DNA of 39,413 bases from IMG/VR virus record IMGVR_UViG_2703718855_000002. The stretch is one strand, 5' to 3'. The position numbers and the translations under genes were made by a program. The stretch's first letter is position 1; every line of letters starts with the position of its first letter. The notes beneath the pieces were generated by a model, which saw only the letters and a program-made list of their open reading frames with translations, made no database searches and was not told the origin of the DNA. The DNA comes from a virus (Duplodnaviria > Heunggongvirae > Uroviricota > Caudoviricetes). Below, piece by piece: positions 33,691 through 35,982 of this stretch.

Positions 33691-35982
33691 ATGACGGTCT
33701 CAACCGAAGTTGACCACAACGAATACACAGGCAATGGCGTTACGACATCGTTTCCGTATACCTTCCGCATTTTCAAAAAATCCGACCTGGTTGTTCAGGT
33801 GGTTGACCTTGATGAAAATATCGCTGTGCTGGATCTTGATACTGATTACACTGTCACTGGGGCTGGTGGATACAACGGTGGCAATGTAATTTTGTCGAAG
33901 GCATTGGCCAGCGGTCATCAGATTTCTATATCTCGAGAGCTACCAGTTACGCAGGAAACCGATCTGCGCAATCAAGGTAAGTTCTTTGCTGAAGTGCATG
34001 AGGATGCTTTTGATAAGCTCACTATGCTTATACAGCGGGCATATAGCGTTTTTCGCTTAGCTCTGCGTAAACCATCAAGCATTGCGAACTGGTACGACGC
34101 GCTGAACAACTGCATCCGCAATTTGCGCGATCCCTGCAACCCGCAGGATGCCGCCACCAAAAATTATGTCGATACGCTCGCAAACAGCAACTTAATCCGC
34201 ACGCTGCGAGTTCCAGAAGTTATTATATCCTTGCCTGATGCTGAAACCAGAGCTAATAAGATGGTTGCATTTGATAGTATCGGCAATCCTTTAGTGGTTT
34301 TGCCTCCTTCAGGTTCTGCTTCTGATGTTCTTATTCAGTTGGCTGCCTCAGATGGAGCAAAATTATCGTTAAGTCAAGTAGCCACCGCATATGGCCTTGA
34401 TTTCTCGTTAGGCGGTGTATGGCGGGAGGGGGCGTTATCTAATGTTGATAACTGGTGGTGGTATAATAATAAAATCTACACTGGTGGTAGTGGCACTCTT
34501 CCGTCATCTCCTGCTTTGCCATGGTACGAAGTGACGGTAGCAGATTATATTTCTGTTGCTCAATTTTTCCCCATTACTGGTGATCCAGCGGCAGATAACT
34601 CAGCTAGCTTTAATGCTGCTGCAGCAGTTGCTTTATCGGCAGGAAAGAGGCTGTTTGTCCCTGCAGGAACTTACTATGTTAAGTCACCAGTTGATTTAAC
34701 AATAGGCACTGTTGACCTATTCGGGGATGGCGTTGAGAAGTCATTCATTATTGCGGGGAGTGGGTTCACTGGAGAGGCAGTTGTCAACATGTACTACGAA
34801 ACTGACTCTATAAGACGTAGCACATCTATCTATCACGTTACAGTTGATGGGAACAACATCGCCAACTATCCTTGCCGAATTCAATATGTTCACCTAGGAA
34901 GAACCCATAATTGTCGTTTCATCAATGGCGCGGTGGCGAACTTATATACTATAAACGACTGGCTTAATACCTATGATTGCTGTTCTTTTGTTCCTGCGCC
35001 AAATCGCGGAGTTCACCTTGCTGGGGCTAACAACCGCGTAACGTTCAATAACTGTGGATTTGCATCAAATAAGGTCGGTGAATATGCCTTTTATGCTTCT
35101 GGTACTTCCCCTATTGAAGGTTTAAGCTTAATTGGATGTGACCTTGAGTTCGGCATTGGGCATGGCATGTACTTAAATACCCGAGTGACCAATATTGTTG
35201 GCGGGTACTATGGCGAAGCGATACAAGGCGATATTTTTACGGTTCCAGATGGAGTAGTAAAAATAAGCGGTGTAAATGCTTTTGTAGGATATTACAATGA
35301 GGGAGGAAGGTTTGTTGTTCTTGACAATGATGCTGTAGTTAAGGTTGATAGTTGCTGGATTGCAGATCAGGGCAACTTTAAACTTTCATTACTTGCATCA
35401 AGCGCTGACAACAGGGCTCATGCTGTATTTACTAATTGTTATATTGGTGCAACTGTGTCTGGCCCACAAGTTATGGAAGGAGATTGTTTAGGCAAGATCA
35501 ATATGAGGACGTTTGCAGAAAGCAGGGCAATCCTTTATACAATGAACAATACTGGTAATACAGTAACCAGAAGCAGATACAACTCAATAGGAGCAAAAAT
35601 AACCATTAATACCGTAACGAGCCCTAGTTCTAACAAGCTATCACTTAATACTAAGATAAAAGACAGAGGGTGGAAGGTTAACGACCGGGTGTACTTAATT
35701 GTTACTTATGAGAGTAATGTTGATATAAATATTTATTTAAGCAGTTCGATATATGCTGCATCGGATGCAACGCTATTTGGAACTTTACCATCAACAAATG
35801 GTTCTTTATCTACGTGTTATATTGCTAATAATATTATTCCGGAAAATACATCTGAGATATTCGAGTTTTATGTAAATGGCGCTGGTGTTGGCGATTACTT
35901 TGCTATTCAGGATGTTACTCTTACAGACAGGTCATTCACTTTCAGTGGAACAACTATGACCACTTTTGCTAAGGCTGAATAA
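33691..35982 (+). CDS. Tailspike / tail fibre (T7 gp17-like N-terminal anchor, C-terminal parallel beta-helix-like domain)
   Basis: 763 aa; N-terminal YTGNGVTTSFPYTF...TDYTV pattern; C-terminal half visibly AT-richer (by eye). Confidence 0.75.
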   Translation: MTVSTEVDHNEYTGNGVTTSFPYTFRIFKKSDLVVQVVDLDENIAVLDLDTDYTVTGAGGYNGGNVILSKALASGHQISISRELPVTQETDLRNQGKFFAEVHEDAFDKLTMLIQRAYSVFRLALRKPSSIANWYDALNNCIRNLRDPCNPQDAATKNYVDTLANSNLIRTLRVPEVIISLPDAETRANKMVAFDSIGNPLVVLPPSGSASDVLIQLAASDGAKLSLSQVATAYGLDFSLGGVWREGALSNVDNWWWYNNKIYTGGSGTLPSSPALPWYEVTVADYISVAQFFPITGDPAADNSASFNAAAAVALSAGKRLFVPAGTYYVKSPVDLTIGTVDLFGDGVEKSFIIAGSGFTGEAVVNMYYETDSIRRSTSIYHVTVDGNNIANYPCRIQYVHLGRTHNCRFINGAVANLYTINDWLNTYDCCSFVPAPNRGVHLAGANNRVTFNNCGFASNKVGEYAFYASGTSPIEGLSLIGCDLEFGIGHGMYLNTRVTNIVGGYYGEAIQGDIFTVPDGVVKISGVNAFVGYYNEGGRFVVLDNDAVVKVDSCWIADQGNFKLSLLASSADNRAHAVFTNCYIGATVSGPQVMEGDCLGKINMRTFAESRAILYTMNNTGNTVTRSRYNSIGAKITINTVTSPSSNKLSLNTKIKDRGWKVNDRVYLIVTYESNVDINIYLSSSIYAASDATLFGTLPSTNGSLSTCYIANNIIPENTSEIFEFYVNGAGVGDYFAIQDVTLTDRSFTFSGTTMTTFAKAE

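What the first reader, a model, noticed from the sequence alone, without database searches (positions are those of the whole stretch)
33691..35982. Mosaic tailspike with conserved anchor and AT-rich receptor-binding/enzymatic domain
The first 130 residues look like the conserved particle-binding domain; the remainder carries beta-helix-like repeats (NCRFINGAVAN, RVTFNNCGFASN) and from about 34.4 kb the DNA looks clearly AT-richer than the rest of the phage, suggesting recent horizontal exchange of the host-range determinant, probably a glycan depolymerase.
Basis: partly seen in the sequence, partly recalled or inferred. Interest (0 to 1): 0.4.

Follow-up and report, generated by a model that had tools for sequence, protein, structure and literature searches.

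The report
Mosaic prophage tailspike, likely O141-specific
This is the tailspike gene of a phiV10/epsilon15-like E. coli prophage whose sugar-recognising beta-helix half was recently copied, together with a scrap of a neighbouring integrase gene, from P22-like prophages; it is an ordinary example of phage host-range module swapping, and probably targets the O141 O-antigen.

Summary
The ORF at 33691-35982 (+, 763 aa) is real. It is the tailspike of a Uetakevirus-like (phiV10/epsilon15-type) prophage.

- **Composition.** The receptor-binding part has the lowest GC in the window: GC3 is 0.34, against 0.51±0.06 for the other genes.
- **Horizontal exchange is directly visible.** Window 34393-36122 is 98.6-99.5% identical to the "tailspike → ← intS" region of P22-like prophages. 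The flanks are phiV10-like.
- **Direction of transfer.** The cassette ends inside a 45-codon relic of the intS integrase, so it moved from a P22-like into a Uetake-like genome. Strain ETEC1716 carries both versions.
- **Likely receptor.** Five of the seven complete E. coli genomes with this module belong to the 14 of 5426 that carry the O141 O-antigen cluster. O141 is therefore the likely receptor.
- **Enzymology.** E486 and E509 are candidate catalytic residues. Enzymatic activity is inferred, not shown.

This is a new member (a new subtype) of a well-known kind of system. Interest is modest.

The parts
33691..35982 (+). Tailspike gene, 763 aa plus stop codon
   Evidence: The ORF is listed. 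PHROG tail and tailspike families match with E-values down to 1e-144. It sits between the phiV10-like structural genes and the lysis cassette.
33691..34335 (+). Particle-binding anchor, aa 1-215. It comprises a T7 gp17-like N-terminal domain (aa ~11-168) and an extension.
   Evidence: tblastn gives 74-82% aa identity over aa 1-223/225 to the tailspikes of BUCT554, TL-2011b, phiV10, SPN1S and epsilon15. Pfam PF03906 covers aa 11-168 below its cut-off. PDB Dpo31/Dpo36 N-termini match with E=4e-26. Nucleotide identity to phiV10 falls from 98-100% to ~70% at about 33750.
34336..34524 (+). Conserved 63-aa connector, aa 216-278 (QLAASDGAKLSLSQVATAYGLDFSLGGVW...NWWWYNNKIYTG...LPW). The left crossover lies inside it at 34349-34392.
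   Evidence: It is nearly invariant across tailspikes with three anchor types and at least three unrelated downstream domains. The mismatches to P22-like copies cluster at 34349-34392: 14 in 44 nt.
34525..35385 (+). Right-handed parallel beta-helix with N-terminal cap helix, aa ~279-565. This is the presumed glycan-binding and cleaving domain.
35140..35217 (+). Candidate catalytic carboxylates. D484 (35140-35142) and E486 (35146-35148) lie in the motif CDLEFGIGHG. E509 (35215-35217) lies in YGE, one rung further on.
   Evidence: E486 and E509 are at least 90% conserved, and Y506 is invariant, in 56 homologues that share 20-30% identity. D484 is the majority residue at its column. The catalytic role is inferred, not tested.
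35386..35979 (+). C-terminal beta-rich domain, aa ~566-763. It has the lowest GC of the gene (37%; GC3 0.30).
   Evidence: The model shows beta strands, but pLDDT is mostly 30-80. Homologues align end to end through it.
34393..36122 (.). Imported cassette shared with P22-like prophages: rest of the connector, receptor-binding domain, terminator and intS 3' end.
   Evidence: It is 98.6-99.5% identical to six P22-like prophage loci and two Uetake-like loci. phiV10 homology stops at 34346 and resumes at 36250.
35989..36014 (.). Bidirectional hairpin terminator between the convergent tailspike gene and the intS relic
   Evidence: An 11-bp stem (GAAAAGGTGGA/TCCACCTTTTC) with T-rich sequence on either side.
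36000..36134 (-). Relic of the last ~45 codons of an IntS-type tyrosine integrase, a passenger of the cassette
   Evidence: The translation is ...LTHANGGSMRGIYNHAQYLDKRREMMQWWADWLDEKVE*. It is 92-95% nt identical to intS genes in thousands of E. coli genomes. It is annotated 'integrase, incomplete' in ETEC1716 and ETEC4090. The prophage's own full-length integrase is at window 1-1257.

Best explanation
The gene encodes the tailspike (receptor-binding protein) of a temperate phiV10/epsilon15-like podovirus integrated next to yfgI.

**How it works.**
- The N-terminal ~215 residues dock the presumed trimer onto the tail.
- A conserved 63-aa connector joins them to a right-handed beta-helix and a C-terminal domain.
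- The beta-helix part binds the host O-antigen and most likely cleaves it endolytically, which lets the virion reach the outer membrane.
- The probable substrate is the E. coli O141 O-polysaccharide.
- E486 and E509, with D484, H401 and Y506 nearby, are the candidate active-site residues.

**How it arose.** The gene is a recombinant. The stretch 34393-36122 was copied recently from a P22-like (Lederbergvirus-type, IntS-integrase) genome. It carries the rest of the connector, the receptor-binding domain, the terminator and 123 nt of a convergent intS gene. The left crossover lies in the connector, which both genomes share. The right junction is an illegitimate or short-homology join inside intS. 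The cassette replaced the ancestral receptor-binding domain and the O-antigen-modification gene that phiV10-type genomes carry at that place.

**Shown:** the ORF, the domain layout, the beta-helix fold (by prediction), the composition shift, the near-identical cassette in unrelated prophages, the intS relic and the O141 association.

**Inferred:** trimer formation, enzymatic cleavage, the catalytic residues, O141 as the substrate and the direction of transfer.
For: - **Backbone.** Window 9000-33690 is ~97.5% identical to phiV10 and relatives. The lysis genes after 36250 are phiV10-like.
- **Anchor.** 74-77% aa identity to Uetakevirus tailspike N-termini.
- **Cassette.** 98.1-99.5% identity over 34349/34393-36122 to P22-like prophages that have Arc/Ant upstream and intS downstream.
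- **Direction.** Full-length intS lies convergent to the tailspike next to argW in ET245 and VG48B2. The window holds only its last 45 codons and has its own integrase at 1-1257.
- **Replaced gene.** phiV10 has oac, and L028 an Acyl_transf_3 gene, where the window has the relic.
- **Serogroup.** The O141 wzx-wzy cluster occurs in 14 of 5426 genomes. Five of the seven genomes with this module are among them: P13-6, ETEC1716, ETEC4090, VG48B2 and ST12468. The hypergeometric P is 1e-12, uncorrected for clonality.
- **Active site.** E486, E509 and Y506 are conserved in 56 distant homologues.
- **Framework.** Exchange of O-serogroup-specific receptor-binding domains between Uetake- and Lederbergviruses is already documented (PMC10408124).
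Against: - Two of the seven carriers are not O141. UMNF18 is O147. ET245 has another O-antigen cluster, flanked by IS1. Five of seven would not meet the 90% rule of PMC10408124.
- Several O141 carriers are porcine ETEC and may be clonally related, so the P value overstates independence.
- No catalytic motif of a characterised family was matched. Sequence matches to solved structures cover only the N-terminal cap of the helix.
- The model is a monomer with mean pLDDT 71, and the C-terminal domain is poorly modelled.
- The receptor-binding-domain copies in the two prophage types are not reciprocally monophyletic. There may have been several exchanges or gene conversion rather than one transfer.
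- The serogroup of the window's own host is unknown.
Confidence: 0.6

Rival explanations
1. The beta-helix recognises a surface glycan other than the O141 O-antigen, for example a K antigen or capsule, or another exopolysaccharide shared by the porcine and other carrier strains. On this view the O141 association is a by-product of clonal relatedness.
For: UMNF18 (O147) and ET245 (non-O141 cluster) carry intact, 99%-identical copies. Many structural neighbours are capsule depolymerases.
Against: The five O141 carriers come from pigs (Belgium, France), a Swiss farm environment and human blood in Houston. UMNF18 shares many identical flanking proteins with O141 strain P13-6 but has a different rfb and colanic-acid region, which fits a serogroup switch after lysogeny. 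The ET245 rfb region is IS1-flanked and its wzzB is disrupted. Uetake- and Lederbergvirus tailspikes characterised so far are O-antigen specific (PMC10408124).
Confidence: 0.15
2. The domain only binds the glycan, or modifies it without cleaving the chain. It would then be an adhesin-type or epimerase-type beta-helix rather than a depolymerase.
Against: Two glutamates one rung apart are conserved across 56 homologues. This is the usual signature of tailspike endoglycosidases, by established knowledge of the P22, Sf6 and HK620 tailspikes. Most phage neighbours are proven depolymerases.
Confidence: 0.12
3. The low GC of the 3' part reflects amino-acid composition and relaxed codon choice of a fast-evolving domain, not foreign origin.
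For: GC1 of the C-terminal domain is also low (0.36), which reflects a composition rich in N, S, T, I and K. The anchor is already below the window mean (46.4%).
Against: GC3 drops from 0.47 to 0.34-0.30, independently of the protein sequence. The same DNA is found at 98.6-99.5% identity in unrelated prophages, with sharp junctions. Exchange is therefore shown whatever the cause of the low GC.
Confidence: 0.05
4. The transfer went the other way, from a Uetake-like to P22-like prophages, or both received the cassette from a third kind of phage.
For: The copies are not reciprocally monophyletic. Homologous receptor-binding domains (30% identity) occur behind T7-like, P22-like and TSP1/gp66-type anchors.
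Against: The intS 3' end is part of a full-length, functional-looking integrase gene next to argW in P22-like prophages. In the window it is a 45-codon orphan. Six of the eight carrier loci are P22-like.
Confidence: 0.1

Closest known systems
Tailspike (tail fiber) gp25 of Escherichia phage phiV10 and gp20 of Salmonella phage epsilon15 (Uetakevirus)
   Same: Same genomic position in a ~97.5%-identical backbone. The N-terminal anchor is homologous (74-77% aa identity over aa 1-225). The general architecture is the same: an anchor followed by an O-antigen-specific domain.
   Different: There is no similarity after aa ~225. phiV10 has no connector motif, has a longer (875 aa) O157-specific C-terminal part, and is followed by the O-acetyltransferase gene oac. 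Here an intS relic lies in that place.
Tailspikes of P22-like (Lederbergvirus-type) E. coli prophages, e.g. WP_000129900.1 (UMNF18, ET245) and WP_096937520.1 (P13-6, ETEC1716)
   Same: Connector, beta-helix, C-terminal domain, terminator and the downstream intS end are 98.6-99.5% identical at the DNA level.
   Different: Their N-terminus is the P22 head-binding domain (PF09008, ~120 aa), not the T7-like anchor. They sit after Arc and Ant in a P22-like genome.
Horizontal transfer of O-serogroup-specific receptor-binding domains between phage genera (Pas, Latka, Fieseler, Briers 2023, PMC10408124)
   Same: The same phenomenon and the same two temperate genera. The anchor is conserved per genus and the receptor-binding domain is shared across genera and tracks the host serogroup.
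   Different: O141 is not among their assigned subtypes. They reported conserved junction motifs only in lytic genera and not in Uetake- or Lederbergvirus prophages. Here a conserved connector is the crossover site.
Beta-helix tailspike endoglycosidases with solved structures (CBA120 TSP2 6w4q/5w6p, phi29 gp12 3gq7, LKA1 gp49 4ru4) and GVE2 ORF18 (7chu)
   Different: Only 10-19% sequence identity. The catalytic residues cannot be transferred by alignment. Sequence-level matches to PDB cover only the cap region.

Membership tests
Uetakevirus-type (phiV10/epsilon15) tailspike | N-terminal anchor homologous to phiV10 gp25 / epsilon15 gp20 (about the first 205-225 aa) | tested here: met
   tblastn gives 76.9% identity to phiV10 and 73.7% to epsilon15 over aa 1-225.
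Uetakevirus-type (phiV10/epsilon15) tailspike | Located between the virion structural genes and the holin/endolysin/Rz cassette of a Uetakevirus-like genome | tested here: met
   The backbone is 97.5% identical to phiV10 relatives. Synteny with phiV10 is seen, and the ETEC1716 annotation agrees.
Pectate-lyase-like right-handed beta-helix depolymerases (Pfam PF12708 / pectin lyase fold) | Right-handed parallel beta-helix fold | tested here: met
   [not shown]
Pectate-lyase-like right-handed beta-helix depolymerases (Pfam PF12708 / pectin lyase fold) | Pfam PF12708 match above the gathering score | tested here: met
   35.9 bits against a cut-off of 27, over aa 293-378.
Pectate-lyase-like right-handed beta-helix depolymerases (Pfam PF12708 / pectin lyase fold) | Catalytic acidic residues in the groove, and glycan-cleaving activity | tested here: inconclusive
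   E486 and E509 are at least 90% conserved and Y506 is invariant in 56 homologues. They were not mapped onto a known active site. Activity is not testable with these tools.
Glycoside hydrolase family 28 (the RefSeq product name is 'glycosyl hydrolase family 28-related protein') | Match to the GH28 profile (Pfam PF00295), and the GH28 motifs spaced one rung apart | tested here: not met
   PF00295 was not reported even at E up to 1. PDB polygalacturonases match only the N-terminal cap, at E 0.002-0.02. The GHG in CDLEFGIGHG lies 4 residues after the acidic pair, not one rung away. The GH28 motif spacing used for this comparison is from memory.
P22-like (Lederbergvirus) tailspike | N-terminal head-binding domain PF09008 | tested here: not met
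   PF09008 is absent from the window protein. It is present in the proteins that share the receptor-binding domain.
O-serogroup-specific receptor-binding-domain subtype in the sense of PMC10408124 | [quoted passage not shown] | tested here: inconclusive
   Five of seven carrier genomes (71%) are O141. One is O147 and one carries another cluster. The enrichment is very strong (P ~1e-12), but the 90% rule is not met.

The most novel reading that the evidence does not exclude
The 63-aa tryptophan-rich connector (aa 216-278) may be an undescribed, portable tailspike module.

- It is kept at 80-90% aa identity behind three unrelated anchors (T7-like, P22 head-binding, TSP1/gp66-N).
- It sits in front of at least three unrelated C-terminal domains.
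- Its DNA has diverged to ~72% against L028 while the protein is kept, which indicates purifying selection.
- It is absent from 50,697 sequenced phage records and from Pfam.
- In complete E. coli genomes it is found almost only in O141 lysogens (11 of 13).

It could be a universal joint that both trimerises the spike and serves as the homologous crossover site for exchanging receptor-binding domains among temperate phages. The published survey found no such motif in these genera. Alternatively it could itself contribute to O141 recognition.
Probability: 0.3. Interest if true: 0.5.

Novelty: new member of a known kind. Interest (0 to 1): 0.3.

Why it matters
It adds one more well-resolved case to the known picture of host-range module swapping between unrelated temperate phages. 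Both junctions are mapped to within tens of bases, and a passenger integrase relic gives the direction of transfer.

In practical terms it nominates a receptor-binding domain for E. coli O141. That serogroup is important in porcine post-weaning diarrhoea and oedema disease, and no O141-specific tailspike was found in the literature searched. Such domains are used for serotyping reagents, engineered tailocins and phage therapy.

The conserved connector could be a useful splice point for engineering chimeric tailspikes.

Tried and rejected
- **tblastn of aa 226-763 against 50,697 phage records:** no match. The receptor-binding domain is known only from prophages and metagenomes.
- **Third homologue search, with the connector alone:** returned nothing because of the word index. 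The search was wasted.
- **Genome-contig scan with the family profile:** no confirmed locus. The viral-contig scan gave only near-identical copies and three relatives at 24-27% identity.
- **Sequence search of solved structures, single sequence and profile:** it reached only the anchor and the cap of the helix, so no active-site transfer was possible.
- **Literature searches:** the ETEC1716 and ETEC4090 serotypes, an O141 tailspike and the O141 repeat-unit structure were all sought without useful result. I therefore give no sugar structure for O141.
- **GH28 membership (the RefSeq name):** considered and rejected.
- **P22-type tailspike:** rejected, because there is no head-binding domain.
- **Recent transfer inside ETEC1716 between its two prophages:** considered but not supported. 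Its two copies differ at 19 positions, more than some copies in different strains.
- **dN/dS among the nine copies:** 10 synonymous against 13 non-synonymous variable codons. This is too few to say much.
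Full report
**1. The observation**

The two quoted motifs are present.

- GC is 49.4% for the window, 46.4% for the first 675 nt of the gene and 41.3% for the rest. The last 600 nt fall to 37%.
- The lowest-GC 1617-nt stretch of the whole 39.4-kb window lies inside this gene.
- Third-position GC is 0.466 in the anchor, 0.357 in the connector, 0.358 in the helix and 0.30 in the C-terminal domain.
- The 24 other genes of the window average GC3 0.507 with sd 0.063.

The shift is therefore real, beyond gene-to-gene scatter, and it starts at about 34.35 kb.

**2. What the gene is**

The window is a prophage.
- Positions 9000-33690 are ~97.5% identical to Escherichia phage phiV10 and its relatives (Uetakevirus).
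- The right end abuts the host genes yfgI and yfgH.
- A full-length integrase is at 1-1257.

The gene occupies the tailspike position of phiV10, between the structural genes and the holin/endolysin/Rz cassette. PHROG tail and tailspike families match it with E-values down to 1e-144.

**3. Domain anatomy**

*Anchor, aa 1-~215.*
- tblastn against 50,697 phage records finds only this part. Identity is 74-82% over aa 1-223/225 in BUCT554, TL-2011b, phiV10, SPN1S and epsilon15. A second group of phages shares only aa 1-161.
- Pfam Phage_T7_tail covers aa 11-168, below its cut-off.
- The N-termini of the solved Dpo31/Dpo36 spikes match with E=4e-26.
- Against phiV10, DNA identity is 98-100% up to ~33740. 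It drops to ~70% through the anchor, so the anchor is itself a diverged allele.

*Connector, aa 216-278.*
- An alignment with homologues shows an almost invariant stretch, LSLSQVATAYGLDFSLGGVW...NWWWYNNKxYTG...LP.
- It is shared by proteins with three different anchors: PF03906, PF09008 and PF18668.
- It is also shared by proteins whose downstream parts are unrelated, namely the P0012/P0015 type and P0022/P0023 with PF09992.

*Beta-helix, aa ~279-565.*
- An AlphaFold2 model of aa 216-763 has mean pLDDT 71, with 80-92 in this part.
- It shows a cap helix followed by stacked short strands.
- BFVD gives pectate-lyase-superfamily phage proteins.
- PF12708 matches above its cut-off.

*C-terminal domain, aa ~566-763.* It is beta-rich and poorly modelled. 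It is conserved end to end in homologues.

**4. The horizontal exchange**

*Extent of the cassette.*
- In 5426 complete E. coli genomes, only two carry the whole gene: ETEC1716 and ETEC4090, at 99.4-99.6%.
- Five further genomes match only gene nt 659-2292, at 98.3-98.8%. There the gene is annotated as a phage tailspike protein and lies after Arc and Ant in P22-like prophages.
- Homology with phiV10 ends at 34346 and resumes at 36250.
- Homology with the P22-like loci runs from 34349 to 36122.
- Within it, 14 of the first 44 positions differ, and after 34393 only about 1% differ. The left crossover therefore lies inside the connector.

*The right end.*
- It lies in a 45-codon relic of an IntS-type integrase on the minus strand (36000-36134). 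This follows a bidirectional hairpin terminator at 35989-36014.
- In ET245 and VG48B2 the same tailspike is followed by a full-length convergent intS next to tRNA-Arg (argW).
- An intact neighbour gene in one context and an orphan fragment in the other indicate transfer from a P22-like into the Uetake-like genome. This direction is inferred.

*What was replaced.* The cassette took the place of the ancestral receptor-binding part and of the O-antigen-modification gene that relatives carry there. phiV10 has oac at that place, and L028 has an Acyl_transf_3 gene.

*Complications.*
- ETEC1716 carries both prophage types with this module.
- The nine copies differ at 0-24 positions and do not sort by prophage type. 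Exchange or gene conversion has probably happened more than once.

**5. Likely function and receptor**

*Rarity of the family.*
- 20-23 clusters turn up among 5.8 billion proteins with the word-indexed search.
- An exhaustive HMMER search of 1.84 billion representatives gives 105 hits at E up to 1e-3 and 16 at E up to 1e-30. Apart from the gene's own cluster and one protein at 57% identity, all hits have 22-41% identity (22-32% among the ~80 best).

*Candidate active site.*
- In an alignment of 56 of these homologues, E486, E509, H401 and R400 are at least 90% conserved, and Y506 is invariant.
- D484 is the majority residue at its column. It was invariant in the smaller eight-sequence alignment.
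- Two carboxylates one helical rung apart is the arrangement known from the P22, Sf6 and HK620 tailspike endoglycosidases. That comparison rests on established knowledge and was not tested here.
- I therefore propose E486 and E509 as the catalytic pair.
- Hydrolase and lyase cannot be told apart from these data.

*Receptor.*
- PGAP names the wzx and wzy genes of strain P13-6 'O141 family'.
- Its wzx-wzy segment occurs in only 14 of 5426 genomes.
- Five of the seven genomes that carry this module are among those 14 (hypergeometric P ~1e-12, ignoring clonality).
- The exceptions are UMNF18, which is O147, and ET245, which has a different cluster with IS1 next to galF and in wzzB.
- UMNF18 shares many identical flanking proteins with P13-6 but differs in the rfb and colanic-acid region. 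This fits a serogroup switch after lysogeny.
- O141 is the best-supported receptor, but it is inferred.

**6. Comparison with what is known**

Exchange of O-serogroup-specific receptor-binding domains between Uetake- and Lederbergviruses is established (PMC10408124). This gene is a further instance.
- The RefSeq name 'glycosyl hydrolase family 28-related' is not supported. There is no PF00295 match, and PDB polygalacturonases match only the cap.
- The protein is not a P22-type tailspike, because PF09008 is absent.
- O141 is not among the subtypes assigned in that paper. No O141 tailspike was found in the library searched.

**7. The connector**

This is the least ordinary element.
- It has no match in 50,697 phage records and no Pfam family.
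- Against a Uetake-like relative with a 31%-identical receptor-binding domain (L028), its DNA is only ~72% identical while the protein is ~81% identical. The protein is therefore under constraint.
- Its DNA occurs in 13 of 5426 E. coli genomes, and 11 of those are O141. Six of the 11 records carry a different downstream domain.
- PMC10408124 reported conserved junction motifs only in lytic genera.
- Whether the connector is a trimerising neck, a recombination joint, or part of receptor recognition remains open.

**8. Verdict**

The finding is an ordinary but clean example of tailspike mosaicism. It is a new receptor-binding subtype, probably O141-specific, within a known system.

Noticed in passing
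window 34336-34524 (aa 216-278 of the tailspike): A conserved tryptophan-rich 63-aa connector is shared by tailspikes with three anchor types and at least three unrelated C-terminal domains. It has no Pfam family and no hit in 50,697 phage records. In complete E. coli genomes it occurs in 13 of 5426, of which 11 are O141. Its DNA has diverged against L028 while the protein is kept.
   Followed up: partly
window 36000-36134 (-), and the 75-bp stretch 36009-36083: This is an orphan 3' end (45 codons) of an IntS-type integrase. The 75-bp stretch is repeated at the far end of an intS / hypothetical / acyltransferase island next to ybhB in P13-6 and ETEC1716. It behaves like an attachment-site repeat.
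   Followed up: partly
window 35983-36318, compared with L003 (phiV10) 6637-7653 and L028 6380-7507: phiV10 and a related Uetake-like locus carry an O-antigen acyltransferase gene between the tailspike and the holin. This prophage has none, so it may lack O-antigen conversion and superinfection protection at this site.
   Followed up: no
L001 and L005 (both in E. coli ETEC1716): One genome carries the same receptor-binding module twice: once in the Uetake-like prophage at yfgI and once in a P22-like prophage at ybhB. ET245 also carries it in two P22-like prophages. The copies do not cluster by prophage type, which suggests repeated exchange or gene conversion.
   Followed up: partly
[not shown]
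   Followed up: partly
L011/L012 (P13-6, O141) compared with L029/L030 (UMNF18, O147): The two porcine strains share identical proteins around fliD, amyA and yedE, including the same IS200 remnant. They differ in the galF-gnd O-antigen region and in the neighbouring colanic-acid genes. This indicates an O141/O147 serogroup switch by recombination.
   Followed up: partly
window 31433-32065 (-): A 210-aa ORF with low GC (40.8%; GC3 0.374) matches phrog_1349 (unknown function) and has no Pfam match. It lies in a stretch (31196-32200) that has no counterpart at this place in phiV10, so it may be a moron.
   Followed up: partly
window 33750-34346: The anchor is itself a diverged allele. Identity to phiV10 is 98-100% up to ~33740, about 17 codons into the gene, and then ~70%. 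The tailspike therefore has at least three mosaic boundaries.
   Followed up: yes
window 14517-14593 (-): A tRNA-Arg (anticodon TCT) lies within the prophage, as also annotated in the related O157 typing phages 9 and 10.
   Followed up: no
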